DNA from: Nitrospirota bacterium
Lineage (GTDB): Bacteria > Nitrospirota > UBA9217
Direction: 5' to 3'
Assembly (NCBI GenBank): GCA_963663225.1
Contig: OY760142.1
Span: forward strand, 195,913-259,912
DNA length: 64,000 nt
Numbering within the stretch: position 1 is the first letter of the stretch; every line of letters begins with the position of its first letter. The notes beneath the pieces were generated by a model that made no database searches, had not been told where the DNA came from, and worked only from the letters and a program-made list of their open reading frames with translations. The position numbers and the translations under genes are program-made. Shown one piece after another: positions 4,914 to 64,000 of this stretch.

Positions 4914-4930
4914 CTGACGCTCCTTAACAG

Positions 4931-5710: not shown

Positions 5711-5711
5711 G

Positions 5712-11785: not shown

Positions 11786-11840
11786 AATAAAATAATGTTT
11801 TGCAGAGCCAATCAGGCAATTCTGCGTCGGAAGCCTGTAT

Positions 11841-12878
11841 TTAAAAACCGGTCAACTTTAGTGCAAAGTACCCTTTTGAGAATCCTCCATGAAGAGACAA
11901 GCTCGAGGCTTCCCACATATTAATCCTTTTTAATGAAAAAGTATCCGAAAGATCATTGACACCTATTTCCGTTGTAACGGCGTATTCATATCCTGCTTCC
12001 TGAACCGCCTTCTTGAGCGCAGAATCGATATTTCCGCATGGATACGAAAAGCTGTTTACCTGCTGCCGGGTGTTCTCTTCTATAATCTGTTTTGAATCAT
12101 ACAGTTCATGTTTCAACTGTATTTTGTCTATCATGGTCGGGTTGTCATGACTGCAGGTGTGAGAGCCGAATTGACCATGATCATGCATCGACGCGATCTG
12201 ATTCCAGCTCATTATAGGATTGCTACTTTTTAATTTTTCGTGGTCTGTCTGCAACTTTTCGTGGAGTATTTTGAGAAGTGAATCTACTTTTTTTGAATCC
12301 CACTCATTAACTCTGGCAAAGAAACCAGACGGGTTTTTCTCAAATTCCTCGAACAACATTGCTACTTCAGAGTTTGTCCGCTGTATAAGTGTCTCTTTGC
12401 TGCCCCATTGCTGCATCTGAATAAGGTAATAATACAATTGATCCCACCAGAACGGATTCTCATCTTTGCTACCGATTTTATCGGCAGTGAGAAAGAATGT
12501 CGCGGTCAAATCCAGTTTTTTAAGCACTGGGTAGGCATTCCGATAGTTATCTTCATAACCGTCGTCAAAGGTAATAATCAGCGAGTTGGAAGGTAACTTA
12601 TTGCCGGGATAATTTTTTTTTAAATCCTGGAACGAAAGAACAGTATACCATTTCTTAATAAAGCGTAGTTGATTCTCAAAACTCTCTACTGTTGTAAACA
12701 GATATGGCAGCGACGCGTCAAGTTTACTGAGCGATTGGCCAGTCACCCTGTGATAGGTTATGATGGTAAGCCGATTACCGGCAATATTGTTCAGAAAACG
12801 GACAAAATGAAATAATCCGGTGTATAGATATAGCAAACCAACGGCTCTTCGAACAGTTTGTTTTATTTTAGTAACCAC
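11841..12878 (-). CDS. membrane-anchored polysaccharide deacetylase (NodB domain)
   Basis: 345 aa ORF; N-terminal TM helix, NodB motif LIITFDDGYEDNY and His motifs (HTCSHDNP). Confidence 0.7.
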   Translation of the reverse strand: MVTKIKQTVRRAVGLLYLYTGLFHFVRFLNNIAGNRLTIITYHRVTGQSLSKLDASLPYLFTTVESFENQLRFIKKWYTVLSFQDLKKNYPGNKLPSNSLIITFDDGYEDNYRNAYPVLKKLDLTATFFLTADKIGSKDENPFWWDQLYYYLIQMQQWGSKETLIQRTNSEVAMLFEEFEKNPSGFFARVNEWDSKKVDSLLKILHEKLQTDHEKLKSSNPIMSWNQIASMHDHGQFGSHTCSHDNPTMIDKIQLKHELYDSKQIIEENTRQQVNSFSYPCGNIDSALKKAVQEAGYEYAVTTEIGVNDLSDTFSLKRINMWEASSLSLHGGFSKGYFALKLTGF

Positions 12879-12919
12879 GAATGCTTCCTTTTCCGTGATA
12901 AAACTGAGCGTATGACTAC

Positions 12920-13996
12920 TTAATGATTTCCCCAGGATAACAACATTCTTTTTAATGAGACAAGCATTTTTATCGCATTAAAAGGAAACACTGAGCACAA
13001 GCGGTAAAACCAGAAGGTGTTATCACAGTACGGATTGTTTATCGATTTAATCACCTTCCAGATTGCTTCCGCTTCATACCGCATGCCTTTTTTTAGATAC
13101 TCTTTGTATAAAAGCACAAGCAACCTTTTGTATTCTCTTTCAATCTCTTCTATTGCGGGTCTGTTCGGACTTTGCGATGGGAAATATATTTTTTTACAAA
13201 TATCGATATGATACCGCAATTTTGTAAGATATTCGACCTGCGTAAGACGATTACCGGCATGACTTCTGTTGCCCGCTGTGGCAATATCCATAAAAATAAG
13301 ATCACAATCCTGCGTCAAATGGGCCATAAGCCAGTAATCTTCCCATGTCAAATAACCTTCCGAAAATCGAATCTTCTTCTCAAAACATTCTCTTTTTGCC
13401 AGAAGTGTCCAAGCACTAATATAGTTATTTTTTAATTCTGCAGAAAATAGATTTCCTGCATATATGTCAAAAGAATCGTTATTATAGGTTATCCCAAAAT
13501 CCCTAGAGCTGTATTGTTTCGAATATACATCTGACCAAGTGCGAATACTTCCTTTTTCCCCCATACCCACCCAGGTATGCAAACCATTATTCGAAATAAT
13601 CCCCGTCTTATCAAATATGTAAAAATCTGAATGCACCGCTTTATAGGTAGGAAAAGCCCGCAACACGTTAAATTGCAATGACAGCTTAAATGGCATCCAT
13701 ATATCGTCAGAATCTAAAAAGGCGAGCCATTCGTTCTGCGCCTCCTGGATTCCACGGTTTCTTGCTGCGCCTGCACCGGCATTTTGCTGGCAAATATATT
13801 TTATTTTACTGCCGAAGCCCAGCACAACTTCCCGCGTATTGTCTGTTGATCCATCATCAACAACAATAATTTCAATATCGCAATTGTGGATATCCTGATC
13901 GAGCACGCTTCGGATTGACTCGGCGATTAAACCAGCACGATTAAAAGTAGGAATTATTACAGATACAGACGGGAACTCAGTCATATTATTAACCAT
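12920..13996 (-). CDS. glycosyltransferase family 2
   Basis: 358 aa ORF; GT2 N-terminus VSVIIPTFNRAGLIAESIRSVLDQ...IEIIVVDDGSTDNT. Confidence 0.75.
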   Translation of the reverse strand: MVNNMTEFPSVSVIIPTFNRAGLIAESIRSVLDQDIHNCDIEIIVVDDGSTDNTREVVLGFGSKIKYICQQNAGAGAARNRGIQEAQNEWLAFLDSDDIWMPFKLSLQFNVLRAFPTYKAVHSDFYIFDKTGIISNNGLHTWVGMGEKGSIRTWSDVYSKQYSSRDFGITYNNDSFDIYAGNLFSAELKNNYISAWTLLAKRECFEKKIRFSEGYLTWEDYWLMAHLTQDCDLIFMDIATAGNRSHAGNRLTQVEYLTKLRYHIDICKKIYFPSQSPNRPAIEEIEREYKRLLVLLYKEYLKKGMRYEAEAIWKVIKSINNPYCDNTFWFYRLCSVFPFNAIKMLVSLKRMLLSWGNH

Positions 13997-15116
13997 GGGT
14001 GGTCAACTTAAACAATTTTTTCGCGAAATCTTTTATACTGAAAATAGACTGTAATAATTGTCCTTTATAACTTTTATTAAATGCACATACTATGACATGT
14101 TTTCTCTCGTTTTCCTTCGCCCATATTCGCTTCCATGTCATGGAGGGTCCGAGAAAATCAAATTCAGTTATGTTACGCTTGAAGACGGCATCAAATTGCA
14201 TCCATTTAAGCGTGTTGCCTACTCCGAATTCATGGTATGTTTCGTCAAATTCAGTTTTTAAATCATACAAGGTGTTTTCATACAGCAGACAAAAGTCAAA
14301 AACAACGGGTGTATTTCCGGCATAAAGAATATAAAGCTCCAACCATGCTTCCCGTGCAGCGGTATACGCCAAGTCACGGTAAAAAGATTTTAGTAATGGT
14401 GTCGAAGAAAGAGCCGTGCCCTCCCTGGCTTTCCAGCTTTTTGCAGCAATTGTGAATACATCATCAAGTGCTTTATCCAACTCAGATGAGTCCTTATAGG
14501 AGATAAGTTTTACAGGACCGTTTTCCTCTAGTTTTTTAAACCTGCTGTTCAAACCTCTCTTAAATCGTGGCTGAAGGTTCTTAATATAGTCATCCCAGCA
14601 GTTCGTTATGGGTATATACGGCGTCGACATTTGAAAATACTGTTTGCAGGAAATGTCTTTTTTCTTCAAAGACGCTAAAAAGTGCTTTTTAGCAGGTGAA
14701 TCGTCGTAAAAATACTCAAGATTCAGTAAATCCCATGTTTCGCCATATTCATTCAGCAAGCATGAGACTATAACATCGCATGCTTGTTCTGGCTTATCAC
14801 TTAATATTAGATCTGCTCTGTTTGAATGAACATTTGCTATAAATTCAATTTTGTTTGCGTTCAGTGTTGTGTTTGTTTTGCCAATGACAGTATATGGTCC
14901 TTGGTTGAACATAAAAGGAGCTATCGCAATAAGTTCGTTTTTATCATATACAAGTATGATAAAGAGCTTATTTTCGGACCGGAAGGCTCTCCACCATGCA
15001 TCCATCCATTCGTGAGTTAGAAAAACAAAGGGGTGAAGACTTCGTTTTAGCAAGTTGTTCCAAGCATTCTTAATCTCCAAAAAATCTTCATATGTATTTA
15101 TGACGTGAACCTTCAT
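13989..15116 (-). CDS. FemAB-like / GNAT-fold acyltransferase (CelD/BioF2-like), paralog 1 of 3
   Basis: 375 aa ORF. Shares N-terminal W-rich motif (THEWMDAWWRAF) and C-terminal EFDFLGPS-type motif with the next two genes. Confidence 0.6.
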   Translation of the reverse strand: MKVHVINTYEDFLEIKNAWNNLLKRSLHPFVFLTHEWMDAWWRAFRSENKLFIILVYDKNELIAIAPFMFNQGPYTVIGKTNTTLNANKIEFIANVHSNRADLILSDKPEQACDVIVSCLLNEYGETWDLLNLEYFYDDSPAKKHFLASLKKKDISCKQYFQMSTPYIPITNCWDDYIKNLQPRFKRGLNSRFKKLEENGPVKLISYKDSSELDKALDDVFTIAAKSWKAREGTALSSTPLLKSFYRDLAYTAAREAWLELYILYAGNTPVVFDFCLLYENTLYDLKTEFDETYHEFGVGNTLKWMQFDAVFKRNITEFDFLGPSMTWKRIWAKENERKHVIVCAFNKSYKGQLLQSIFSIKDFAKKLFKLTTHG

Positions 15117-15127
15117 TTCATGGTATT

Positions 15128-16273
15128 TCAGGATTTTTTGGCGATATATGCAGTCTGGCTGGGCAAACCGGCACTTCTAAATAGTTTTTTTGCTGAGCAT
15201 TTTATACGATATAAAATATTCGAGAGCGTACCATTTATTGTTTTGTTATAAAGAGTAACCGTAAACAAAGGACGGCCATCTTTGGTCCAGCCGCTTTTAT
15301 ATTCCTCGCTTCCCTGTAAGAAGTTATACTCTGTATTGCCGTTTTGAAAGGCTTCTTTGATTGCCTCAAATACAATAGCTTTGCCCGGTCCAAACCGCTC
15401 CCATTTTACGTCCATTCCCTTCTGATAGGAAAATATGCGTCCTTGATAGTTAAAATTATAAGAAGCGGCAATGACGTCTTTTTTGTTTCGCAAAAACCTC
15501 ATGGAAATCCAACCGGAGTTGTTTATGCGTTTTGACAAAGCCTTGTGGAATTCGAGAATCGCGGCATCATTAAAGGTGCTGCGGATTTTTTTTCTACTGG
15601 ATCTGCTCGCATGAATAGCAAACAAGGTATCAAATGCTTCAGGTTCGGCCAGCGGGTCACACGATTCATATGAGAAGCCCTGCGCTTCCAGTTTCTTTTT
15701 TCTGCTTTTCAGGTTGTATCTTTGTTTGGAATCAAGGGTATTTACAAAATCTTCAAAGCTGCCGTGCAACGGAATAAAGTAAGCGTAGGAATCCTGCCGG
15801 ATATTGTAACAGAGGCCGTTCCTGTAATCAGCGCGGTCCTGTTTAGTCCATGAAATAAAGTTGCTGCCCTCAGCAAACAGTCGCAAATCAAGAACGTCCC
15901 ATTCTCTATATTCAGAATACAGGAAATTACAGAGTGCTTCGATGCATGCTTTCGCGTTTTCTTTTGATGCAATAACATCAAGATGGTCAGGATACAGCTC
16001 CCTGCAGCCGCAATAGGTTAATACACGGCCGACAGTACATTCTCTGTTCAAACAAATATTATACGAAGCAAGCGGGAGTATGCCTTTAAGTTCGGAATCC
16101 TCATACACAAATAAAATGAGAGGCATATAGCTTTCACCAAACTGTTCCCACCAGGTATATATCCATTCCCAGGTGCAGAAGATTGATGGAATCGGCATCG
16201 AAGCCGCCAAACAGTTCCAGGCGTCCCTGCTGTTTTCGAATTCCTTCTCAGTTGCGATCTTTACTGTATACAT
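15128..16273 (-). CDS. FemAB-like / GNAT-fold acyltransferase, paralog 2 of 3
   Basis: 381 aa ORF; CTWEWIYTWWEQF N-terminal motif and EYNFLQGSEEYKSGW C-terminal motif, collinear with paralogs 1 and 3. Confidence 0.6.
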   Translation of the reverse strand: MYTVKIATEKEFENSRDAWNCLAASMPIPSIFCTWEWIYTWWEQFGESYMPLILFVYEDSELKGILPLASYNICLNRECTVGRVLTYCGCRELYPDHLDVIASKENAKACIEALCNFLYSEYREWDVLDLRLFAEGSNFISWTKQDRADYRNGLCYNIRQDSYAYFIPLHGSFEDFVNTLDSKQRYNLKSRKKKLEAQGFSYESCDPLAEPEAFDTLFAIHASRSSRKKIRSTFNDAAILEFHKALSKRINNSGWISMRFLRNKKDVIAASYNFNYQGRIFSYQKGMDVKWERFGPGKAIVFEAIKEAFQNGNTEYNFLQGSEEYKSGWTKDGRPLFTVTLYNKTINGTLSNILYRIKCSAKKLFRSAGLPSQTAYIAKKS

Positions 16274-17414
16274 TTTTTATCAGTTTCTTGCCCGGTTTAA
16301 TGACCCGTTGTGACAGGTAATGTACCGCCCTATTGGAGACGTTATTTTTCTTAATAAAAAGCGAGAAATTAAACCGAGTATTGTTTGCCCAGAAGTATTT
16401 ATATTTTTCATCGCCCCGGAGAAAATCAAACTCAGAACATCTCTCGGAAAAAGCTTTTTCGATCATCAGGGATAACAGAACCGTGCCCGCACTTTTTTCT
16501 TCCCCGTGCGCGGACAGTCCTGTTTGGTAATAGTAGTATTTGTTGTTGTACTTTATACAATAATAAAAAGCCTGATAAACCGACTCCTTCAGGAGAAAGG
16601 CAATAATTATTTTGTTTTCATTCAGTAAGTAGCCAACCAAGGATTCGTGGAAACTATAGACCTTGTCTCCTCTGAAGGCAGTCGGATAATTTTTTCTTTT
16701 TGCACGTTCCGCATGAAGCAAGAATAAAGTCTTCAGGTAGTGCTGCAGATTACCGGATTGGCTGTCCAGAATGCGGCATTTCCAGTTTTCCTTTTCCAGC
16801 AGATTTTTTTTCTTGCGCAGAAGTGTATTGCGTGTTTTTCCTGAAAAAGAACCGAGAAAGTCCTCAAAAGTTTTATCGATAGTCAGATAGGGGCAACGAG
16901 AGTCCGCGTTGCATTCAATGAGTAATTTTAGGAGCCCGTTTCGATGATCCGAAAGATACTTTTTTATGCAGGAGTTTTCATGCACGCCTTCCAGTGTTAT
17001 TTCATCCCATTCCATCTCATGCGTCTGTAGATAATCAAATACCAGCTTCGGGAAAAGGTGTTCAACTCTTCTATCGCAAAGAATGTCGAGATGATCGGGA
17101 GCAGTCTCGGAAGAGGAGCAGAATTTGACTGTATTGCGTCGGACACCGAAATATCTTTTTTTCTCGATATAAAACGGCGCAATCCCGACTAGTTGCCCTT
17201 GTGTGTCATAACCACAGACAATAAGTAGTTCTTTCTTTTCGTTTTTAAACGTATTCCACCAGGAAAACATCCACTCCCAAGACAAAAAGAATTCATTCGT
17301 AACGCTTCTGTTCAGGAGTTCGTTCCATTGTTCCCGCAGAAAAGTAAAATCTTTTTCCGAGAGCCGTTTTATAAAAAGAGATTTCACTTCTATGTCTGAC
17401 TTCGTTGTTATCAT
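16248..17414 (-). CDS. FemAB-like / GNAT-fold acyltransferase, paralog 3 of 3
   Basis: 388 aa ORF; LSWEWMFSWWNTF and EFDFLRGDEKYKYFW motifs. Overlaps paralog 2 by 26 nt. Confidence 0.6.
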   Translation of the reverse strand: MITTKSDIEVKSLFIKRLSEKDFTFLREQWNELLNRSVTNEFFLSWEWMFSWWNTFKNEKKELLIVCGYDTQGQLVGIAPFYIEKKRYFGVRRNTVKFCSSSETAPDHLDILCDRRVEHLFPKLVFDYLQTHEMEWDEITLEGVHENSCIKKYLSDHRNGLLKLLIECNADSRCPYLTIDKTFEDFLGSFSGKTRNTLLRKKKNLLEKENWKCRILDSQSGNLQHYLKTLFLLHAERAKRKNYPTAFRGDKVYSFHESLVGYLLNENKIIIAFLLKESVYQAFYYCIKYNNKYYYYQTGLSAHGEEKSAGTVLLSLMIEKAFSERCSEFDFLRGDEKYKYFWANNTRFNFSLFIKKNNVSNRAVHYLSQRVIKPGKKLIKNVYSKDRN

Positions 17415-17454
17415 GAGAATATCGCTATCGCCGCCTCTTTTGCGCTGTTGACGG

Positions 17455-18609
17455 TCAGTTTTCTCTGGTGAGAATTACCTGTTTAAAGATTGTCTCATAA
17501 TTTTCTATCATATGTTCCAGGCTGAATTTTTCTTCCACCCTTTTTTTTGCGGCCGTGCTGAACTGTTGCGCCGTTATCGGATCATCCAAGATGGACCAGA
17601 TGGCTTCCGCCAGCGCGTGGGAATCTCCGGGCGGGACCAAAAAACCCGTCTCACCCTGGACAACTGCTTCGGCATTGCCGCCGACCGTTGTTGCCACTAC
17701 CGGCTTGGAAGAAGCCATGTATTCCAAAATCGTGTTTGAAAAACCTTCACTTAATGAAGCCACAACGGCAACATCGAATATGGAAATTATTTCCGGAACA
17801 TCTCTGCGCCTTCCCAGAAAATGCACATTCCGGGAAACACCAAGTTTTTCGGCCATTGTCTGCATACTGCTGATTGAATAACCCATGTCAGTTGTATCAC
17901 TGCCGGCGATGAGAAACTCAACATCGGATCTTCTTTTGCAAATACGCGAAGCGGCCTCAATGAGATACGTAATGCCTTTTATGCGGCGAAGATTTGCGAC
18001 GAGTCCCACTACCGGATGAGCAGGGTCAATACCGATTTCTTTTTTAATATCTGAGCACGTTCTGCGGCACGTATTGTATTCCCGCAAATCAACTCCATTG
18101 TAAATCGAAACTATCCGTTTTTCAGGAAACCAGCCTTGTTTAACTATCTCCTGTTTGACTGCATCGCATACGGTTATCTCCCGATCAAAAAAACCACCGA
18201 TAAGTTTGTACGCCATCTTATGATGCGAGCGCGTTTTGAAGCCCATGTCTCTTCTGCTTGAAATAACCGGAATATTGCATGCTTTAGCAAGGATTAAGCC
18301 GTAAAAATCTGAAGTTTCGTGATACGTTACGATGAGCGAAATATTCTTATTTTTAATCAACCTGCGCAGAAAAAAGATATTTTTTATCCCATTGACAGTA
18401 TAGATCCCACCCCGCAAAAGGTCAAAGACTGAGTGGCCTTCTTCGCGCATTTCCTGAGCAAGCTGGCCGGAATAGATGCAAGCCATGTAAAGATTAAATT
18501 TCTCTTTATCAATACCTTTTAGCAGCTGTGTAATATTGCGTTCAGATCCCGCCATTCCCATGAACGTGTCAGTCAGGATCAGCACATTATATTTATTTGT
18601 CATTTCCAT
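17455..18609 (-). CDS. glycosyltransferase family 4
   Basis: 384 aa ORF; VVASLSEGFSNTILEYMASSKPVVATTVGGNAEAV GT4 signature. Confidence 0.8.
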   Translation of the reverse strand: MEMTNKYNVLILTDTFMGMAGSERNITQLLKGIDKEKFNLYMACIYSGQLAQEMREEGHSVFDLLRGGIYTVNGIKNIFFLRRLIKNKNISLIVTYHETSDFYGLILAKACNIPVISSRRDMGFKTRSHHKMAYKLIGGFFDREITVCDAVKQEIVKQGWFPEKRIVSIYNGVDLREYNTCRRTCSDIKKEIGIDPAHPVVGLVANLRRIKGITYLIEAASRICKRRSDVEFLIAGSDTTDMGYSISSMQTMAEKLGVSRNVHFLGRRRDVPEIISIFDVAVVASLSEGFSNTILEYMASSKPVVATTVGGNAEAVVQGETGFLVPPGDSHALAEAIWSILDDPITAQQFSTAAKKRVEEKFSLEHMIENYETIFKQVILTREN

Positions 18610-18633
18610 AATTTCAACACATTTTTAGCAAAA

Positions 18634-19332
18634 TTACTTTTCTTCTTGTTTTTTGTCTATGGTGTCTGGTTTTGTGCCAGATGATTCTTGGTTCGGTTTC
18701 GAGAAATCGACGGAAAGCAAATGACATTTTAAATCTTTTCTGAATGTTTTCGAGGCCATGATATCCTGCACTTCGAATTTATTCTTACCTTTAAATAAAT
18801 AGTCAAACTTCGTCAGGCCCTGTCGCTCCCATTCCATGAGGCATTTTTGCTTATATTTTTCTACTGTTGAAACACGTATTGCGGGATTTCCTATCATGAT
18901 ACTGCCCGGTTTTACATCGTTGATAACCGTAGCATAGGGGCCGATGATTGAATTTTTTCCAATTCTAACTCCGGCGGATATAGTAGCATGAGCTCCTATA
19001 AAGCAATTATCTTCTATGATGACTTTTCCAAAAAAACGTAAATGCGGGAGCTCGTCTCTGAAAATTACGCTCGCGCCGTCATGCGTCATGAGATCCACGC
19101 CATACGCTATGGAAACACTATCGCCGATTTCAACCAGATAAGGTTCTGAACTCAAGCTTCTAATTTGAAGAAAACAATTTTTCCCGACTATTGCGCCCTG
19201 TTTTCTGAATTTTTCTGCAATCGTAACGTCATTGTAGCGGAATCGTTCGTAAATTCTGTGAAGAATGTAAGCAACCATGTACAAGGGTGCGAGCAAAATT
19301 CTTAGCTTTTTACAGTACATAGACACCTGCAA
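18634..19332 (-). CDS. hexapeptide-repeat (left-handed beta-helix) acyl/acetyltransferase, paralog A
   Basis: 232 aa ORF; N-terminal hydrophobic helix; conserved block AEKFRKQGAIVGKNC...EPYLVEIGDSV...MTHDGASVIF...GKVIIEDNCFIGAHATI shared with 25990..26589 and 28749..29378. Confidence 0.7.
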   Translation of the reverse strand: MQVSMYCKKLRILLAPLYMVAYILHRIYERFRYNDVTIAEKFRKQGAIVGKNCFLQIRSLSSEPYLVEIGDSVSIAYGVDLMTHDGASVIFRDELPHLRFFGKVIIEDNCFIGAHATISAGVRIGKNSIIGPYATVINDVKPGSIMIGNPAIRVSTVEKYKQKCLMEWERQGLTKFDYLFKGKNKFEVQDIMASKTFRKDLKCHLLSVDFSKPNQESSGTKPDTIDKKQEEK

Positions 19333-19361
19333 TATCCATTAAATTTTTTACCGCAAACGCA

Positions 19362-20459
19362 CTATTTAACGTCGCAACGGAAATTTCCCGAATAATCCAC
19401 GCTACCATTTTTGGCGAGTACCACGAGGTTCATTTTTCTAAAACTCGGCACTAAACCCAGCGGTGCATAATCTTCAAAATTCAGATATGTTGCATTTTCA
19501 AATACTACTCCCTTCGCGTTCATCTCTTCCGCACGTTTTACGGCTTCATACAGGAGTGCTGCTATATGCGGCATGCTGCATTCTTTAAAAGGATTTACAA
19601 TCAGGAAGTCGACAACAATAAAAAATTGTGTTTTGCTTTCCTTGATCGTTTCTAACGGATAAAAATTTATAAAAGCGTTTATTTCACCATCGCGTTCTAC
19701 TACAAAAGTTCTGTGCGTGGGATGGCCAAAACAGTAGTGTTTGAGCTGATCTTCCGCCATGGTCAGCATAAAATGCGGTGCATCGGGAATTTTATTAAAC
19801 AATTGCGTCAACTGTCCGGCATCAGCTTCTTCTGCAATTCTTATTCTGGCAGAACCGGGCAACGGAGAATTGTCTTGCAGGTATTTTTTCAAACGTGCGG
19901 GCATGACTACACACTGGTTGAATGTTGAATAAGTTTTTCGCTTCACCTGAAAATATTTTGCCGACAGTTTATCACCTATGCTTTTTAATGGCTTTCCTTC
20001 TTCAATATAGGCAAATGTCGCGCTGCAGTCGGGCTCATAGAAATCTGCATCAGGGTGAAATAAATGAGTATGTTCGGCCAACTGCATTACACAATCCATC
20101 CTGTGGCGTAAATCAAGCCGGGGAGAAACTGCAAGGTGGGTGTTTAAATATGAATTCATTACATTCCCATTACAGATCATTTTTCTAGGGAGAAAACTCT
20201 GAAAGGCCACTAATTCATCATCAAGGAACGCTCCAAGAAGTATGTTTTTGTCAGTATTGGGTCCTCCATACAACCACAGTAAATAGTCCTGGGGAAATAC
20301 CGGGCTTCCTGTTTTGCCGTACAATTGGCTCCAGATAGAATTCAAAAATGTGCCTATTTTCTGCATTTCTTGCAATGAAAGACGCGAAAATTTCAGCAAT
20401 CGTTCATGCCGCAGCAATTTTATAAAAGAAGTAAGTGGTTGTCCGTTTTTAATTTGCAT
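19362..20459 (-). CDS. hypothetical protein (possible GNAT-like acyltransferase fold; function unknown)
   Basis: 365 aa ORF in operon context with no overlap conflicts. I recognise no diagnostic motif; the segment LLGAFLDDELVAFQSF is only weakly GNAT-like. Confidence 0.45.
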   Translation of the reverse strand: MQIKNGQPLTSFIKLLRHERLLKFSRLSLQEMQKIGTFLNSIWSQLYGKTGSPVFPQDYLLWLYGGPNTDKNILLGAFLDDELVAFQSFLPRKMICNGNVMNSYLNTHLAVSPRLDLRHRMDCVMQLAEHTHLFHPDADFYEPDCSATFAYIEEGKPLKSIGDKLSAKYFQVKRKTYSTFNQCVVMPARLKKYLQDNSPLPGSARIRIAEEADAGQLTQLFNKIPDAPHFMLTMAEDQLKHYCFGHPTHRTFVVERDGEINAFINFYPLETIKESKTQFFIVVDFLIVNPFKECSMPHIAALLYEAVKRAEEMNAKGVVFENATYLNFEDYAPLGLVPSFRKMNLVVLAKNGSVDYSGNFRCDVK

Positions 20460-51921: not shown

Positions 51922-53241
51922 TTAGAGCTGATGTTTGTAGGATTTCACGAACGCACTCATACGATCGCGAGCGTCGAATACGCGTTTGCGCAGGTCTTTT
52001 GCATACTGATCCAAGTCAAGTTTAACCGTGGCAACGCCTTCATCCATGGCTGCCTTGGCAACCGCAACCGGCTCGAGGTCGATCAGACGGGTATCAAGCG
52101 CCTTCGGGATGATGTAGTCCAGACCATAGGTCAGCGACTTCACATTATACGCATCACAAACTTCCTGCGGTACCGGCTTTTTGGCCAGGTCAGCGATAGC
52201 TTGCGCTGCAGCTTTCTTCATATTTTCGGTGATTGCAGTTGCGCCGCAGTCCAGAGCTCCGCGGAAGATATAGGGGAACCCGGAAACGTTGTTCACCTGG
52301 TTCGGGAAGTCAGAACGGCCCGTTCCCATGATCAGGTCCGGACGAGCTGCCTTTGCATCGGGATACGGAATTTCCGGATCAGGGTTCGCCATGGCGAACA
52401 TGATCGGATTTTTGGCCATGCTCTTAACCATTGCAGGAGATACAAGGTTCGCCTGCGAAAGGCCGAGGAACATGTCTGCGCCCTTGAATGCTTCTTCAAG
52501 CGATGAGAAAGCCTTTTTCTGGGCAAACAGCTTTTTGTACTCGTTGAGGTCGGTACGACCCGCATGAATATGGCCTTTGGTGTCGAACAGGGAGATGTTT
52601 TCCTGAGGAACACCGAGCAAAACATAGAATTTGCAGCAGGCAATACCGGCAGCACCGGCGCCCGAGCAGACCACTCTCATGTCAGAGGCTTTCTTGCCTG
52701 AAATATCGATGGCATTGATCAAGCCTGCACCGGAGATGATCGCCGTACCATGCTGGTCATCATGGAATACCGGTATTTTCATGATCTTTTTCAGTTTTTC
52801 TTCAATATAGAAGCAATCGGGTGCGCCGATGTCTTCGAGATTGATGCCGCCAAAAGTCGGCTCTAATGCCTTCACAATTTCAATGATTTTATCCGGATCC
52901 TTGACATCAAGATTGATATCATAGGAATCAATGTCCGAGAAAATCTTGAACAAGATTCCCTTGCCTTCCATGACCGGCTTTGCAGCTGCTGGGCCGAGGT
53001 TTCCAAGTCCCAGGATGGCGGTACCGTTGGTGACAATTGCCACCAGGTTGCCCTTACCTGTGTACTTGTAAACATCTGCGGGATTTGCCGCAATTGCGCG
53101 GCAAGCGTCAGCAACACCTGGCGAGTAGGCCGTTGCCAGATCCTTCTGGGTAAAGTAGGGCTTTGTCGGAATGACTGTGCATTTCCCCGGAGGAAACACA
53201 TTATGATACTTCAATGCTTCTTCTTTCGTTACCAGTGCCAT
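51922..53241 (-). CDS. malic enzyme (NAD(P)-dependent malate dehydrogenase, decarboxylating; short type without PTA domain)
   Basis: 439 aa ORF; AAGGAGG RBS; malic-enzyme N-terminus [13 protein letters not shown] and dinucleotide-binding [12 protein letters not shown]. Confidence 0.9.
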
Positions 53242-53364
53242 TTTACTACCTCCTTTTGTCTATAAAGTTATTTCCCGGCATTTTTACTTCAAATTCTATC
53301 ACGGCATATTGTTTTTAGGGATACAACTGGATCCTGCAACTGTACAAATACTCATGCTGCAAAA

Positions 53365-53380
53365 AGCAAGGAACATGCCA
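53365..53380 (-). promoter_or_regulatory. sigma-54 (-24/-12) promoter upstream of the malic enzyme gene
   Basis: Minus-strand reading TGGCATG-TTCC-TTGCT versus consensus TGGCACG-N4-TTGCW (11 of 12 positions, correct GG-N10-GC spacing), about 124 nt upstream of the ATG and adjacent to a sigma-54 activator gene. Confidence 0.5.
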
Positions 53381-53673
53381 ATTATTATAATGGTATATAG
53401 GACTTATTTTACAGAGGATTAGCTGTTTTTAGAATAACTTCACGCTTGTTTCTGAATATAACGAAACTCATGGATGTGATTCGAAAAAAACTATAATTTT
53501 ATTATTTACAGCAAGATATGAACTATAATAAAAATTATAGGCCATAACTTTTTATACTGATTATTTATTATATATTTTTTACCTGCCCCACAGGGATGTG
53601 TTTCACCTTTATAAAGCGGCCTATCATAGCACAAATCACTTTTTTAGCAATAAAAAAAGCAGAGAGCCTGACA

Positions 53674-56906: not shown

Positions 56907-57394
56907 AGTGATTTAGCTTGCCTCTGGGATTGGTGGGGTTTTACGAATAACATAATTTGTGTAACTTACTGCATTATAAGGAGAAAGTCAAGCAACATAT
57001 GAGTTTTTGCCTGTTAAGAACAAAAAAACCGCTGCCTTCATCTTTGTATTGACAAACCCGGCCCGTTGAGAGCAAATTCTTCATACGATTTGACATAATA
57101 CAGGTGTGCAATTGTAAAAAAAGGGCTGCCGTAACCAGCAGGGTAACCATCCCTAAAGGGCTCCACGCTCGCCTCATCAAAGACGCCACACAACTGCGTT
57201 TCTCCTAAAAAAGCTATTCCATACATTGCATATTAGCCGTAGCATGACGACTATTCCGAATTTTGAATATTAGTCATTTAAATATGCTTTTAAATTCAGT
57301 CGGATACAGCAAATTCTTTCTTAAATTCATTGGCCATCATTTCAATTATATGCTATATTTCCCGAAGAACTAATATCTGGTTAGTCTAACTGAA

Positions 57395-58072
57395 ATGGCG
57401 AAAAACGATTTATACATATCCCCTTTTGAAGGCAAAACACCCGAAGAACGTTTTGTAGCCTATATTGATATTCTTGGCTTTGGTAAAGAAGTAAACGATA
57501 ACTTAGAAGCTGCCATAGACGTTTATGAAGATTTGATTGGTCATTGTCATTTATTAGGTCGCCTAGTAAATCTGTCAATCTATTCCGATTCAATTATTCT
57601 GCAATCTGCAAAATTGATTGACGTCGCATATGTAGCGACAATGGTTCAATTTATTGCTCTTACACGAAATTATCTGGTACGAGGAGGCATCGCGGTCGGG
57701 AAGCATCTTGAATCGAGGCAAAATGGAAATTTATTCGTGGTCAGCAAAGCATTAGTAAAAGCTGTAAAACAGGAGAAGCTAAATCAAACCCAAGAGACAC
57801 CGTGTATTACCCTTCATCATGAAATAAATCCAGTTCCGTCGGTCGTATTAAATGATCCTGCACGCATTGTTGTTGAATACAAGGGACAAAACATTGTTAA
57901 TCCTTTCAATCCCCACATGGAATCAAGCCAAAGAGATGGAATACATTCTCAACTAATTGAACTACGTGACAGATGTCCCGAGAAGGACCAACCGAAATAC
58001 ACTTGGTATATAGAATTGATGGATTTCATTCTAAGAACATATGGGGAAAGTGGACGACAGCGGCCAAATTAG
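57395..58072 (+). CDS. hypothetical protein with minimal nucleotide-cyclase-like palm domain (class III cyclase / GGDEF / Cas10-palm superfamily-like)
   Basis: 225 aa ORF in a low-GC stretch. FVAYIDILGFGK resembles the cyclase metal-binding motif FADIVGFT, with a second Asp about 40 residues later (SIYSDSIIL) and RGGIAVGKH resembling RIGIHTG. Assignment rests on motif resemblance only. Confidence 0.45.
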   Translation: MAKNDLYISPFEGKTPEERFVAYIDILGFGKEVNDNLEAAIDVYEDLIGHCHLLGRLVNLSIYSDSIILQSAKLIDVAYVATMVQFIALTRNYLVRGGIAVGKHLESRQNGNLFVVSKALVKAVKQEKLNQTQETPCITLHHEINPVPSVVLNDPARIVVEYKGQNIVNPFNPHMESSQRDGIHSQLIELRDRCPEKDQPKYTWYIELMDFILRTYGESGRQRPN

Positions 58073-58156
58073 ATATACCAACAACACCGGCGAGAGGGAC
58101 AGAGAATCACGCCCTCCTCATGGCGGCGTTAGCGGAATATTCTGGTAATCAATCGC

Positions 58157-58975
58157 ATGACTATACCATACATAAAACAATATGAAACCCAATTACATTC
58201 GCGACATTATATTCGAAATGCGACTGCTGCAAATTATTGGTATGATTTTTCTGCAAATCGTGTATCCACTTATGTTAATAATTACCATGACGATTTCTGC
58301 ATGGTTATCAATGGCTCAGAAACTGAGAACGACGCCTATGTCTTGCCATATAAAGTCTTTAAAGGTTTTTTTACTGAAGATTACCTTGATCACCGAAACC
58401 GTTGGAATGGTACCATCAAAGACAATATCATCAAACTCACATTGACAGCGAATAACAAGCCAAACAAATATCTATCCGTTGGTGCTTTTTATAATGCCTT
58501 TTCATTTCTCGTCTCAAACCTGCCCGATGAGAATGAAATTCATGTAGTAACGACAGATAGCTTAGAAATCAATCTTTCAAATCTGCAGAAACTGATTCAG
58601 GAGTTTAACGAGCATTACTCAAGTATTGCTCCGGAAAAGCGGATTACCGTATCGGAACGAATCGCGAGACCCAATGCAATCACAGATTATATTAAGAAAA
58701 TTCAAAAATTTACTTGCCAGATATGCAAGCTTCCCGGCTTTCAACAAAAAAACGGTTCCAAATATATCGAAGCCCATCACATCATAGAACTGCATGACTT
58801 AATTCCAGGATCATACTGCTCTGACAACATCATTACAGCCTGCCCAACTTGTCATAGGAAGCTACATTACGCATCTGTATTGTACCAGACTCAAAACGAG
58901 CAAATAGTATCTGTCATTATTAATGGCCAAGCTTATTCTTTTCAAAGAAATGTTATTTCTGAAAAAGTAAAGTAG
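58157..58975 (+). CDS. HNH-endonuclease-domain protein with N-terminal domain of unknown function
   Basis: 272 aa ORF; C-terminal HNH/zinc-finger motif CQICKLPGF...YIEAHHIIELHDL...CPTCHRKLHY; the N-terminal 190 aa have no motif I can assign. Confidence 0.6.
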   Translation: MTIPYIKQYETQLHSRHYIRNATAANYWYDFSANRVSTYVNNYHDDFCMVINGSETENDAYVLPYKVFKGFFTEDYLDHRNRWNGTIKDNIIKLTLTANNKPNKYLSVGAFYNAFSFLVSNLPDENEIHVVTTDSLEINLSNLQKLIQEFNEHYSSIAPEKRITVSERIARPNAITDYIKKIQKFTCQICKLPGFQQKNGSKYIEAHHIIELHDLIPGSYCSDNIITACPTCHRKLHYASVLYQTQNEQIVSVIINGQAYSFQRNVISEKVK

Positions 58976-58992
58976 GGCCTAACGTGTCGTTC

Positions 58993-59159
58993 GAGTCCCG
59001 CGCTCAAGCAGCGCGGGGCTCAACTCGTCGTTCTCCCCTCGCTTCGCAAACGAGGGGAGAATCCCGGGGCTGAGCCTAAGCCCCATCCCCTTGCAAAAAC
59101 GCTCGGGGAGAACCAGGGGCTCGAAACCTACCGCTAACGCGGAGGCTCAGCCCCGGGAT
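58993..59159. repeat. GC-rich cluster of nested hairpins / inverted repeats downstream of the HNH gene
   Basis: Hairpin 58993-59021 (GAGTCCCGCGC/GCGCGGGGCTC, one mismatch); perfect 10-bp hairpin 59032-59060 (TCTCCCCTCG/CGAGGGGAGA); 16-bp inverted repeat pair ATCCCGGGGCTGAGCC (59061-59076) and GGCTCAGCCCCGGGAT (59144-59159). Confidence 0.6.
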
Positions 59160-59205
59160 TAGTCCATGACAGAAGCTATTCACACCCGTAAGGAGACTTT
59201 TCACA

Positions 59206-59952
59206 GTGGACATCCCACGGATATTCAACATTACTGAAAGTGCTCACCGCATCCACAACCCGTTCACAGCCGAAAAGCTCGCCACTCTCGGCGCGGCGCT
59301 GCGTCTGGAATCGGGAGCCCGAGTGCTCGACCTCGGCAGCGGTTCTGGAGAGATGCTGTGTACCTGGGCACGCGATCACGGCGTCATCGGCACCGGCATC
59401 GACATGAGCAAGTTATTCACCGAGCAAGCGAAACTCCGTGCTGAAGAACTCGGCGTCGCCCATCAAGTCAAGTTCATCCATGGCGATGCTGCCGGCTATG
59501 TCTCTGACGAGAAGGTCGATGTGGCAGCCTGTCTCGGTGCCACTTGGATCGCCGGGGGATTCACGGGCACTATCGAACTTCTGGCGCGGAGCCTGCGCAC
59601 CGGAGGGATCATCCTCATCGGCGAGCCCTACTGGCGGCAGTTACCGCCGACGGAAGATGTTGCCAAGGGGTGTCTTGCCAACTCAATCTCCGACTTTCTC
59701 ATGCTTCCAGAACTTCTCGCGTCTTTCGGCCACCTTGGCTACGATGTCGTTGAAATGGTTCTGGCTGACCAAGACGGCTGGGACAGATACGAGGCGGCCA
59801 AATGGCTCACCATGCGCCGATGGCTTGAAGCCAATCCCGACGACGAGTTAGCGAAAGATGTTCGAGCCAAACTGACCTCGGAACCCGAGCGCTACGCCGC
59901 TTACACGCGTGAATACCTGGGCTGGGGTGTGTTCGCGCTGATGCCGCGGTGA
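59206..59952 (+). CDS. class I SAM-dependent methyltransferase
   Basis: 248 aa ORF with GTG start preceded by AAGGAGA RBS; motif I VLDLGSGSGEM. GC-rich coding sequence (by eye). Confidence 0.75.
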   Translation: MDIPRIFNITESAHRIHNPFTAEKLATLGAALRLESGARVLDLGSGSGEMLCTWARDHGVIGTGIDMSKLFTEQAKLRAEELGVAHQVKFIHGDAAGYVSDEKVDVAACLGATWIAGGFTGTIELLARSLRTGGIILIGEPYWRQLPPTEDVAKGCLANSISDFLMLPELLASFGHLGYDVVEMVLADQDGWDRYEAAKWLTMRRWLEANPDDELAKDVRAKLTSEPERYAAYTREYLGWGVFALMPR

Positions 59953-62504: not shown

Positions 62505-63077
62505 TTATTTTCTCGATGTATCGATGATGTATCCTGCTATGAGACCGCCTACTTGCAAAGGTAACATTTTATCCGTAGCACCGGCAGAATACGCTCCTGC
62601 AAATGGGTTTGTATCCTCTCTGATATCTCGTTCACTCACAAGGTTTCCCGAAGCAGCATCGATCAGCTTCACATGAACAGTCATCTCTGATCTTCCTGCC
62701 ATGTCACCGAGCCAGATTCGTGCCCCAGTACCCACAATCCTCATTTGAGTCAATTCCCCTTGCACGATCAGCGTCGAATCCGACCGCTCTGCAGTCGAAA
62801 CATATTTTACATTTTCAAACAAATTTGATTTCATCAACTCTGCGGCACAACTTGATTGAGCATCCGCTAACACTCCCTTCGGATTATCAGTTTCCTGGAC
62901 GCCCCTCGGAGTTATGAAAAAATTTACCAGTTGGACATTTTTATATTTCATATCAGCTTTAGATAGTCTTTCATACGGATTTGTTTTGACTTCTTCGTTA
63001 CGATGACACGCTGATACAACCAACAGCACGCTTAAGATACCTACCACAACCATTGATAACCTTGCAGAATTCCTCAT
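62505..63077 (-). CDS. lipoprotein, function unknown
   Basis: 190 aa ORF with signal peptide and lipobox (LLVVSACH). Confidence 0.6.
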   Translation of the reverse strand: MRNSARLSMVVVGILSVLLVVSACHRNEEVKTNPYERLSKADMKYKNVQLVNFFITPRGVQETDNPKGVLADAQSSCAAELMKSNLFENVKYVSTAERSDSTLIVQGELTQMRIVGTGARIWLGDMAGRSEMTVHVKLIDAASGNLVSERDIREDTNPFAGAYSAGATDKMLPLQVGGLIAGYIIDTSRK

Positions 63078-63249
63078 TATCTTCCTCTCCTTTTGCGAAC
63101 TGCCTCTAAAATAAATTTTATTTGCCTATTATTTTATGTAATTTAGTGCAATTTTATGCAATTCTACGCTTTTCTTTGCATTAAATCAAATTTATTTCCT
63201 ATCTCACCAGAGACGTTTGACTATTTATATAAAACCAATTTATTTGTTG

Positions 63250-63278
63250 TTGACATATTTAAATTGTTATTGTATGTT
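63250..63278 (+). promoter_or_regulatory. putative sigma-70-type promoter for the downstream response-regulator gene
   Basis: TTGACA, 17-nt spacer, TATGTT, about 90 nt upstream of the ATG at 63369, in an AT-rich intergenic region. Confidence 0.3.
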
Positions 63279-63368
63279 TTATTTTACGCATATTTATATT
63301 TATTTCGGATTCTAACTATTTTCCGTTTGGATCAATGAAGGCAGGTCGTTTGAGGAGCATTTATTTTG

Positions 63369-64000
63369 ATGACAGAGCAGTCTTTAAATAGGAACCACGT
63401 AATACTAGTTGTTGATGATGATCATCCGGTACTTGAAGCAATAAGCGCGCAGCTTGACGCATGTGGATATACCGTAGTAACGTGCCTCAATGCACAGGAA
63501 GCCATTGACAAGTATCAATCCACCGACATTGATGTTATTCTTACGGACATCAAGATGCCCGGGCTTTCCGGCATCGAGCTTGCTGAAAGAATCCACGCAT
63601 TAAACGCCGATGTTCCGATTATTCTCATCACTGCATACGCAGATATAAAAACCGCTGTTGACGCGATCCATGGGGGCGCTTTTGATTTTATAACCAAACC
63701 GTATAAATTCGATTATCTGAAGGAATCAGTGAAAAAGGCAATACGATTTACTGAAATGGTTCGGCATGAGAAGGACTATAAGCGCATCCTTGAAGAAGAG
63801 GTCAGACAAAAGACCAAATCTCTTTCTGATATGAGCAGGGAGTTTATCGTACGTTTGACAACGGTTGCGGAATTCAGGGACGAAGATACAGGCGCGCATA
63901 TTTCGAGGATAGGATTGTATGCGAAGGAGATCTCCGAAACTCTCGGCATGCCTTTCGATTTTATCGACCGAATAAGTCTTGCAGGCTCACTCCACGATAT
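63369..64000 (+). CDS. response regulator with receiver domain and HD-GYP-type phosphodiesterase domain (RpfG-like); 3' end truncated by the window edge
   Basis: ATG at 63369 preceded by GAGGAG RBS; receiver LVVDDDHP...ILTDIKMPGLSG...KP; start of HD-GYP domain EFRDEDTGAHISRIGLYA...LAGSLHDI. Not in the ORF track because no stop lies within the window. Confidence 0.75.
   Translation, partial: MTEQSLNRNHVILVVDDDHPVLEAISAQLDACGYTVVTCLNAQEAIDKYQSTDIDVILTDIKMPGLSGIELAERIHALNADVPIILITAYADIKTAVDAIHGGAFDFITKPYKFDYLKESVKKAIRFTEMVRHEKDYKRILEEEVRQKTKSLSDMSREFIVRLTTVAEFRDEDTGAHISRIGLYAKEISETLGMPFDFIDRISLAGSLHD

What the first reader, a model, noticed from the sequence alone, without database searches (positions are those of the whole stretch)
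57395..58975. Low-GC two-gene islet: minimal nucleotide-cyclase-like protein plus HNH-nuclease protein, a candidate uncharacterised signalling/defence module
Two plus-strand genes sit in a markedly AT-rich stretch (by eye; roughly 57230-58975) between a two-component system and GC-rich housekeeping genes. That contrast suggests horizontal acquisition, though I see no integrase or transposase. The first protein (225 aa) carries the spaced Asp motifs of a nucleotidyl-cyclase palm in a very short frame (FVAYIDILGFGK, second Asp about 40 residues later, RGGIAVGKH), reminiscent of minimal Cas10-like or class III cyclase-like signal synthases. The second (272 aa) has an unassignable N-terminal domain fused to a clear C-terminal HNH motif (CxxC...HH...CxxCH). 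A signal-synthase plus nuclease-effector pairing is the logic of CBASS, Pycsar and type III CRISPR signalling, but this exact pairing and size class is not one I can match to a named system.
Basis: partly seen in the sequence, partly recalled or inferred. Interest (0 to 1): 0.8.

Follow-up and report, generated by a model that had tools for sequence, protein, structure and literature searches.

The report
Orphan cyclase-fold gene beside McrA-like nuclease
A small, foreign-looking DNA islet holds two unrelated single-gene cassettes: a McrA-type restriction nuclease of a known kind, and a member of a large unnamed protein family with an adenylyl-cyclase-like fold, and the two do not form a conserved signalling pair.

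Summary
Two plus-strand genes (57395-58072, 225 aa; 58157-58975, 272 aa) lie in the lowest-GC 1.7 kb of the window. GC is 0.377 against a window mean of 0.467, and GC3 is 0.31/0.36 against 0.60-0.72 in the neighbouring genes. All quoted motifs are present.

The proposed synthase-plus-effector module is not supported:
- 59 other non-redundant loci encode ORF1 relatives, and none has an ORF2-type or McrA-type HNH gene nearby.
- None of five independent ORF2-homologue loci encodes an ORF1 relative.
- The 81%-identical ORF1 homologue sits alone, beside a Type ISP restriction enzyme.

ORF2 belongs to a widespread family of about 270 aa that stands alone.

ORF1 belongs to a large family (4370 clusters at 50% identity) with no Pfam, NCBIfam or PADLOC model. 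Members are orphans, are coupled to a ParA-like ATPase, or are embedded in Type I R-M operons.

The best reading is two independent defence-type cassettes. The function of ORF1 is unknown, and it is the interesting part.

The parts
57230..57394 (+). AT-rich leader upstream of ORF1, with the only promoter-like site on the + strand ahead of the genes (57330-57359).
   Evidence: GC 0.33 in 57200-57599. The promoter scan is a consensus match only; the number of sites found is not above the shuffled expectation.
57395..58072 (+). ORF1, 225 aa. It is an orphan member of an unnamed family with a class III nucleotidyl-cyclase (CHD/palm) fold. The core is aa ~17-135 (nt 57443-57799) and carries D25, S64-D65 and R96-G97-G98-I-A-x-G102. 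A family-specific C-terminal extension (aa 136-225) has a helical hairpin at 177-220 carrying K201/Y202/W204.
58073..58156 (+). 84-nt spacer between the two genes. The scan found no terminator-like or promoter-like site in it, so co-transcription in this genome is possible but untested.
58157..58975 (+). ORF2, 272 aa, a McrA-like HNH endonuclease. Its parts are: an N-terminal alpha/beta domain specific to the family (aa 1-~120, nt 58157-58516), a helical linker (aa 140-182), a beta-beta-alpha-Me HNH domain with two CxxC pairs (aa 183-240, nt 58703-58876), and a small C-terminal beta sheet (aa 241-263).
58976..59205 (.). GC-rich structured spacer that marks the right-hand compositional boundary. 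It has a perfect 18-nt inverted repeat (59060-59077 / 59143-59160) and a 14-nt hairpin (59031-59061). It is unique in the window and has no Rfam match.

Best explanation
The islet is a small, horizontally acquired patch that carries two independent single-gene cassettes placed side by side. It is not a two-component system.

ORF2. It is a stand-alone McrA-type (Type IV-like) HNH endonuclease. By analogy with EcoKMcrA, TagI and ScoMcrA, its family-specific N-terminal domain would recognise a feature of foreign DNA, most probably a base or backbone modification. The C-terminal zinc-stabilised HNH site would then cut. That mechanism is inferred.

ORF1. It is a member of a large, uncatalogued family built on the class III nucleotidyl-cyclase catalytic fold.
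- It keeps the two metal-binding aspartates (D25, D65).
- By the profile mapping, it has lost the canonical transition-state Asn/Arg pair and the base-specifying Lys.
- It adds an invariant R96-G97 and a C-terminal helical hairpin.

My inference is that ORF1 is an active, probably dimeric, two-metal nucleotidyl-transfer enzyme acting on an NTP, with non-canonical chemistry or specificity. I also infer that it works without ORF2: either as a self-contained defence or abortive-infection enzyme, or by feeding a partner encoded elsewhere in the genome.

Shown: the fold, the conserved residues, the lack of a conserved partner in its subfamily, the defence-type neighbourhoods of several relatives, and the foreign composition.
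Inferred: catalysis, substrate, product and a role in defence.
For: Independence of the two genes:
- The ORF2-family HMM (A2) hits next to an ORF1-family gene only in the window, out of 60 non-redundant loci. A scan with an HMM of the ORF2 HNH domain plus a CxxC...HH...N...CxxC[HN] regex (McrA-type sites only) finds none within 4 kb in the other 59.
- The ORF1-family HMM (A1) finds nothing in five independent ORF2-homologue loci, including the closest ones at 48-54% identity.
- The 81%-identical ORF1 homologue lies at a non-syntenic site, alone, beside a Type ISP R-M gene.
- Thirteen genome loci of the close subfamily share no recurrent neighbour.

ORF2:
- Pfam HNH 9e-9; PADLOC mREase_IV 1.4e-9; PDB 6GHC (EcoKMcrA) 2.5e-9.
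- 91 homologues at E<=1e-3, most full-length (about 250-305 aa), with invariant C187, C190, E205, H208, H213, D223, N224, C229 and C232.
- Homologues lie next to Type ISP, NgoFVII-like and SIR2_2 genes, or in a prophage-like region.

ORF1:
- hhalign of the family against an alignment of real PF00211 cyclases gives E 2.7e-4 over 134 columns, with D25 and D65 on the two metal Asp residues.
- D65, R96 and G97 are invariant, and D25 nearly so, across 100 diverse members.
- 4370 clusters at 50% identity match at E<=1e-3.
- Relatives are embedded in Type I R-M operons, or lie beside TIR plus caspase genes and AbiU2/Abi_C genes.

Foreign origin: GC3 0.31/0.36 against 0.60-0.72 in the flanking genes.
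Against: - No experiment and no sequence-level family assignment supports catalysis by ORF1. Pfam, NCBIfam, PADLOC and PDB sequence searches are all negative.
- hhalign probability is only 42%.
- By that mapping the canonical Asn is Val121, and the canonical Arg position (K125 here) is variable. ORF1 could therefore be a binding protein rather than an enzyme.
- Many loci of the close subfamily are flanked by ordinary metabolic or regulatory genes, so the defence context is suggestive but not systematic.
- The N-terminal domain of ORF2 matched no known modification reader, so modification dependence is by analogy only.
- The two genes are 84 nt apart on the same strand with no terminator detected between them, so local co-expression, and even local cooperation, is not excluded.
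- One ORF2-homologue locus (P0068) could not be read as DNA. It has an unexamined 234-aa gene upstream.
Confidence: 0.6

Rival explanations
1. ORF1 makes a (cyclic) nucleotide signal on infection. The N-terminal domain of ORF2 binds it and unleashes the HNH nuclease, in the manner of Pycsar, CBASS-Cap5 or type III CRISPR.
For: - Same strand, 84 nt apart, shared low GC, and no terminator detected between the genes.
- ORF1 has a cyclase fold with the metal dyad.
- The ORF2 N-terminal domain is unassigned.
Against: - The pairing is seen in 1 of 60 ORF1-family loci and in none of 5 ORF2-family loci.
- The closest ORF1 homologue has no HNH partner.
- The ORF2 family stands alone in several distant lineages (records name Pyrinomonadaceae, Anaerolineae and Rubrobacteraceae), and its best sequence and fold matches are Type IV enzymes.
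- The Cap5 match covers only the HNH part (67-72 residues). No SAVED, CARF, CNB or other sensor fold was matched.
- No PADLOC Pycsar, CBASS or Cas10 model hits ORF1 or any of 37 relatives.
Confidence: 0.06
2. ORF1 is not a defence gene. It is a mobile-element maintenance or regulatory protein, or a nucleotide-binding pseudo-enzyme with a cyclase fold, comparable to the class III cyclase-like ATP-binding domain of 6YII. It happens to lie next to a restriction gene.
For: - A sister subfamily is translationally coupled to a ParA/MinD-type ATPase in 10 loci, which recalls partition or positioning modules.
- Most neighbours of the close subfamily are housekeeping or regulatory genes.
- The canonical Asn/Arg and the specificity Lys are not conserved.
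- A distant relative lies on a Thauera plasmid.
Against: - D65 is invariant and D25 nearly so, with R96-G97 invariant, across 100 diverse members. That argues for chemistry and not mere binding.
- Six loci place relatives inside or beside Type I R-M operons; others lie beside Type ISP, TIR-caspase and Abi genes.
- The foreign GC and the sporadic, non-syntenic distribution are typical of defence cargo.
Confidence: 0.25
3. ORF1 is a signal synthase whose effector is encoded elsewhere in the genome. Alternatively it is a constitutive 'decoy' producer in the Panoptes manner, and ORF2 is irrelevant to it.
For: - Cyclase fold with an intact metal dyad.
- No linked partner in its subfamily.
- The precedent of inverse or decoy signalling by minimal palm enzymes (PMC12657218, PMC12657230).
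Against: - Known signalling defence systems keep synthase and effector adjacent.
- There is no hit to mCpol or Pycsar models.
- Nothing in the data identifies any receptor.
Confidence: 0.09

Closest known systems
EcoKMcrA / TagI / ScoMcrA (Type IV modification-dependent HNH restriction endonucleases), for ORF2
   Same: - The two-part architecture: an N-terminal recognition domain, a helical linker and a C-terminal beta-beta-alpha-Me HNH domain with CxxC...CxxC zinc ligands.
- The best sequence match in the PDB is 6GHC (2.5e-9), and the PADLOC model mREase_IV scores 1.4e-9.
- Stand-alone gene.
   Different: - The specificity for modification is therefore unknown.
- There is an extra small C-terminal beta sheet (aa 241-263).
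Class III nucleotidyl cyclases (Pfam PF00211), including the Pycsar cyclases PycC, for ORF1
   Same: - Both metal-binding Asp residues are in register, with xDIxGF and the second Asp 40 residues later.
- Motifs resembling GIxxG and AxxxE are present.
   Different: - Members get no PF00211, NCBIfam or PADLOC hit.
- By the profile mapping, the transition-state Asn is Val, the Arg position is variable, and the specificity Lys is Ser/Arg/Thr.
- It has its own invariant R96-G97 and a C-terminal helical hairpin.
- There is no adjacent TM or TIR effector as in Pycsar.
mCpol / Panoptes and Cas10 palm domains
   Same: A minimal palm enzyme with a two-Asp metal site; small size; occurrence in defence neighbourhoods.
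   Different: - There is no match to any Pfam model, which to my knowledge includes an mCpol family, even at E<=10 in 38 members.
- No 2TM-beta or CARF-TM partner gene is present.
Accessory defence genes embedded in Type I R-M operons (for example PrrC in the EcoprrI locus; from general knowledge)
   Same: Relatives of ORF1 sit between hsdS and hsdR, with overlapping reading frames in L061, or close to hsd genes in six loci.
   Different: ORF1 itself is not inside an R-M operon. It lies next to a Type IV-like gene. It has no relation to PrrC in fold or sequence.

Membership tests
Class III nucleotidyl cyclase (PF00211) | Catalytic-domain (CHD, beta-alpha-beta-beta-alpha-beta palm) fold | tested here: met
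   [not shown]
Class III nucleotidyl cyclase (PF00211) | Two metal-binding aspartates (beta1 F-x-D-I-x-G-F and the beta-hairpin G-D) | tested here: met
   hhalign of A4 against A5 places D25 and D65 on the two Asp residues. D65 is invariant and D25 is conserved in at least 90% of 100 members.
Class III nucleotidyl cyclase (PF00211) | Transition-state Asn and Arg (G-D-x-V-N-x-A-x-R) and substrate-specifying Lys/Asp or Glu/Cys | tested here: not met
   By the hhalign mapping, Asn corresponds to V121, Arg to position 125 (K here; K/R/H/Y/A/N in relatives), and the specificity Lys to S61. The mapping rests on a 42%-probability alignment, so it is provisional.
Class III nucleotidyl cyclase (PF00211) | Recognition by the curated family model | tested here: not met
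   No Pfam or NCBIfam hit at E<=1 for ORF1, or at E<=10 for 38 members. PDB profile searches found nothing significant.
Class III nucleotidyl cyclase (PF00211) | Head-to-tail dimer forming the active sites; NTP turned into cNMP plus PPi | not testable with these tools
   No multimer prediction or biochemistry was available.
Pycsar | PycC cyclase adjacent to a PycTM or PycTIR effector | tested here: not met
   No PADLOC Pycsar hit. The neighbour is an HNH gene. The close subfamily has no conserved neighbour.
Panoptes (mCpol) | mCpol domain plus a 2TM-beta or CARF-TM effector gene | tested here: not met
   [not shown]
CBASS / type III CRISPR signalling with an HNH effector (Cap5-like) | Effector with a SAVED or CARF sensor fused to HNH, next to a CD-NTase or Cas10 | tested here: not met
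   [not shown]
Type IV (McrA-like) modification-dependent HNH endonuclease | Intact HNH beta-beta-alpha-Me site with zinc-binding Cys pairs | tested here: met
   Pfam HNH 9e-9. C187, C190, H208, H213, D223, N224, C229 and C232 are invariant, and H207 and H233 nearly invariant, in 43 sequences.
Type IV (McrA-like) modification-dependent HNH endonuclease | Similarity to characterised members | tested here: met
   [not shown]
Type IV (McrA-like) modification-dependent HNH endonuclease | N-terminal domain that reads modified DNA; no cognate methyltransferase | tested here: inconclusive
   The N-terminal domain is confidently folded and rich in conserved aromatic residues (H17, Y18, W28, F31, F47, Y61, W83, F115), but it matches no known reader. 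The downstream methyltransferase-like ORF (59206-59952) has host-like GC and was not examined further.
Type IV (McrA-like) modification-dependent HNH endonuclease | Cleavage restricted to modified DNA | not testable with these tools
   This needs biochemistry.

The most novel reading that the evidence does not exclude
ORF1 represents a widespread, so far unnamed anti-phage family: a minimal class III-cyclase-fold enzyme with non-canonical active-site residues. It would act without a dedicated adjacent effector. It might make an unusual nucleotide product that is itself toxic to phage replication, drain an NTP pool, or nucleotidylate a target. The family would have diversified into orphan, ParA-ATPase-coupled and Type I R-M-embedded forms.
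Probability: 0.25. Interest if true: 0.75.

Novelty: new variant of a known kind. Interest (0 to 1): 0.42.

Why it matters
If the two-gene module had been real, it would have been a new signalling defence system. The data say it is not.

What remains has some value.
- ORF1 flags a large protein family: 4370 clusters at 50% identity, with no Pfam, NCBIfam or PADLOC model. Only structure prediction reveals it as a cyclase-fold enzyme. It recurs in restriction and defence neighbourhoods in three different genomic arrangements. It is therefore a cheap, well-defined candidate for phage-challenge screens and for a search for nucleotide products.
- ORF2 adds a stand-alone McrA-like family whose N-terminal recognition domain has an unmatched fold. 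That could mean a new modification specificity.

Tried and rejected
- Sequence-profile assignment of ORF1 against Pfam, NCBIfam, PADLOC and PDB, with the single sequence and with 38- and 100-member profiles. Nothing significant came back. The marginal PDB hits mixed MTA nucleosidases (E ~0.1) with cyclases (E 0.26-0.57), so I treated them as noise.
This gave only short, non-significant local matches in the expected motifs. I replaced it with an alignment of real PF00211 proteins.
- A 63-nt blastn match between ORF2 and the Type ISP gene of L001. There is no protein-level similarity, so it is chance.
- The HNH gene about 1 kb upstream of a distant ORF1 relative on Thauera plasmid pTha01. It is unrelated to ORF2 (E 2.8) and separated from it by another ORF, so it is not evidence for the pair.
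- tblastn of ORF1 against phage genomes found nothing, although phrog_23933 (function unknown) matches the palm region at 3.9e-8.
- Fused-domain clues. Ten longer relatives (306-465 aa) had no Pfam domain. One 358-aa relative carries an N-terminal DUF433.
- Mobile-element hallmarks around the islet. No tRNA, no flanking direct repeats and no Rfam match were found.
- A possible link to 'Liu-DS6' (Pycsar clade F plus type IV Thoeris, PMC13069673), because one ORF1 homologue lies convergent to a TIR-caspase pair. No sequences were available to compare.
- The look-up of the window's own ORF1 in the contig index failed, so the source organism stays unidentified.

Full report
**1. Observation**

All quoted motifs are present:
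- ORF1: FVAYIDILGFGK (D25), YSDSII (D65, 40 residues later) and RGGIAVGKH (aa 96-104).
- ORF2: C187xxC190, H207-H208 and C229xxC232-H233.

The compositional contrast is real.
- 57230-58975 has GC 0.377. The window mean is 0.467 (sd 0.038 for equal-sized windows). It is the lowest such window in the 64 kb.
- GC3 is 0.31 and 0.36. The flanking histidine kinase, response regulator, methyltransferase-like and M24-peptidase-like genes have 0.60-0.72.
- The dip is not unique. A polysaccharide-biosynthesis cluster at about 10.3-20.5 kb is nearly as AT-rich.

I found no integrase, transposase, tRNA or flanking direct repeats.

The right-hand boundary is a GC-rich spacer with a perfect 18-nt inverted repeat. 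It is unique in the window and has no Rfam match.

**2. ORF2**

- It matches Pfam HNH (9e-9), the PADLOC model for Type IV methyl-directed restriction enzymes (1.4e-9) and the solved EcoKMcrA structure 6GHC (2.5e-9 over aa 107-240).
- The 5.8-billion-protein search returned 91 homologues at E<=1e-3. Most are full-length (about 250-305 aa) at 42-54% identity. Records for some of them name Pyrinomonadaceae, Anaerolineae and Rubrobacteraceae, and several are named McrA by their sources.
- These homologues align from residue 3 of ORF2, so the public 224-aa gene call is too short.
- The zinc ligands and the HNH catalytic residues are invariant or nearly so.

ORF2 is therefore a new member of the McrA-like, stand-alone HNH restriction class, with an unassigned recognition domain.

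**3. ORF1**

No sequence library recognises it. Pfam, NCBIfam, PADLOC and PDB are all negative, also for 38 relatives and for profiles. The only match is phrog_23933, function unknown, at 3.9e-8.

The fold evidence is strong.
- With 38 homologues the AF2 model is confident (pLDDT 89, pTM 0.87).
- Foldseek gives 55 hits at E<=1e-3, and all 50 listed are class III cyclases.

As an independent sequence test I retrieved real PF00211 proteins, aligned 42 short ones, and compared that profile with a 100-member ORF1-family profile. The result was E 2.7e-4 and probability 42% over 134 columns spanning the whole core. The mapping is:

| ORF1 position | Class III cyclase equivalent |
|---|---|
| D25 | first metal-binding Asp |
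| D65 | second metal-binding Asp |
| E127 | conserved Glu |
| V121 | canonical transition-state Asn |
| K125 (variable in relatives) | canonical transition-state Arg |
| S61 | substrate-specifying Lys |

Across the 100 members, D65, R96 and G97 are invariant. D25, L27-G28-F29, S64, G102, A123, E127, P136, K201 and W204 are nearly so.

So ORF1 has the cyclase fold and metal site, but a remodelled active site and its own C-terminal helical hairpin.

The family is large. At 50% identity, 4370 clusters match at E<=1e-3 and 493 at E<=1e-10.

**4. Is the pair a system?**

This was the decisive test, and the answer is no.
- A scan of 100,044 species genomes gave 57 loci with ORF1 relatives. With the other loci fetched, that makes 60 non-redundant loci.
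- An HMM of the ORF2 family hits next to an ORF1-family gene only in the window.
- A scan with an HMM of the ORF2 HNH domain plus a CxxC...HH...N...CxxC[HN] regex finds no other such HNH gene within 4 kb.
- Conversely, five independent ORF2-homologue loci contain no ORF1 relative at E<=1. These include the closest homologues at 48-54% identity.
- A sixth locus had no DNA available.
- The 81%-identical ORF1 homologue lies at a non-syntenic site, with similarity confined to the gene itself. It is alone and next to a Type ISP enzyme and a DUF4062/TPR pair.
- Thirteen genome loci of the close subfamily share no recurrent neighbour.

**5. Context of the wider ORF1 family**

There are three arrangements:
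- (a) Orphans, which is the subfamily of the window. They sometimes lie beside defence genes: Type ISP; ThsB-TIR plus caspase; HEPN-AbiU2 and Abi_C; PD-T4-6-like kinases. They often lie beside ordinary genes.
- (b) Ten loci have a ParA/MinD-type ATPase of about 350 aa immediately upstream, with overlapping stop and start codons.
- (c) Six loci are inside or next to Type I R-M operons. In L061 the ORF1 relative sits in hsdM-hsdS-[extra ORF]-[ORF1 relative]-hsdR and overlaps the start of hsdR.

Arrangement (c) is a classic position for accessory defence genes; PrrC is a textbook example (from general knowledge).

**6. Interpretation**

The best-supported reading is two independent defence-type cassettes in one small acquired islet.

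*ORF2.* It most likely acts as a Type IV-like enzyme: recognition by the N-terminal domain, then cleavage by the HNH domain. This is inferred by analogy.

*ORF1.* It is probably a two-metal nucleotidyl-transfer enzyme with non-canonical chemistry that works without ORF2. Catalysis, product and a role in defence are all inferred.

Rivals:

| Rival | Confidence |
|---|---|
| Non-defence or pseudo-enzyme role for ORF1 | ~0.25 |
| Signal synthase with an unlinked receptor | ~0.09 |

**7. Comparison with known systems, and novelty**

- ORF2 is a new member of a known kind.
- ORF1 shares the fold and metal dyad of class III cyclases, including Pycsar PycC. It fails the family model and, provisionally, the Asn/Arg and specificity residues. 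It lacks the partner genes that define Pycsar, Panoptes, CBASS and type III CRISPR signalling (see the membership table).
- I found no paper describing this family. The nearest literature concerns mCpol/Panoptes (PMC12657218, PMC12657230) and a new Pycsar clade (PMC13069673).

**8. Verdict**

- Overall novelty is a new variant of a known kind.
- Interest is moderate, because the uncatalogued cyclase-fold family is a real and testable unknown.

Noticed in passing
L026, L027, L030, L033, L035, L036, L040, L041, L042, L056 (about 4900-6700 in each locus): A distant subfamily of ORF1 relatives always follows a ParA/MinD-type ATPase of about 350 aa (Pfam AAA_31 up to 6e-32), with overlapping stop and start codons. 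This conserved two-gene operon occurs in Pseudomonas, Buttiauxella, Paenibacillus, Thauera, Herbaspirillum and others. PADLOC gives only weak P-loop hits (PDC-M28B).
   Followed up: partly
L061 2448-10138; L032 2199-11117; also L064, L059, L037, L031: ORF1 relatives are embedded in or adjacent to Type I R-M operons. In L061 the order is hsdM, hsdS, an extra ORF (5123-5908), the ORF1 relative, then hsdR, whose start it overlaps. In L032 a DUF559 endonuclease-like gene is inserted as well.
   Followed up: partly
window 10325-20459, minus strand: This is a second long low-GC region (0.375-0.41). It looks like a polysaccharide-biosynthesis cluster: a flippase-like membrane protein, a polysaccharide deacetylase-like protein, glycosyltransferases, and three paralogous proteins of ~375-390 aa that resemble acyltransferases. 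I judged this from the translations only.
   Followed up: no
window 58976-59205: A GC-rich, highly structured spacer between ORF2 and the next gene. It has a perfect 18-nt inverted repeat (59060-59077 / 59143-59160) plus a 14-nt hairpin. It is unique in the window and has no Rfam match. Its function is unknown; it may be a terminator or an insertion scar.
   Followed up: partly
window 58157-58300: The public gene call for ORF2 (P0043, 224 aa) starts at Met49. Homologues align from residue 3, so the deposited annotation is truncated by 48 codons.
   Followed up: yes
L004 7001-10036: An ORF1 homologue (P0017, Burkholderiales MAG) lies convergent to a ThsB-TIR plus caspase-like pair (type IV Thoeris-like) and an unannotated 170-aa gene. 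A 2026 paper (PMC13069673) reports type IV Thoeris operons joined to a new Pycsar clade and an unknown fifth gene. Any relation could not be checked because no sequences were available.
   Followed up: partly
L001 4347-7814 and L073 1389-4643: The closest ORF1 homologue and an ORF2 homologue each lie next to a Type ISP restriction-modification enzyme, in unrelated contigs. This suggests that both cassettes travel through the same kind of defence hotspot.
   Followed up: no
window 53200-53600 and 62800-63400: Two further short, sharp GC dips (0.31-0.35). The first coincides with the region just downstream of the response-regulator gene. Neither was examined.
   Followed up: no
L029 5767-6843: One ORF1 relative (358 aa, Armatimonadota MAG) carries an N-terminal DUF433 domain (4e-16). 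To my knowledge this domain is usually seen in antitoxin-like proteins. It is the only domain fusion found.
   Followed up: no
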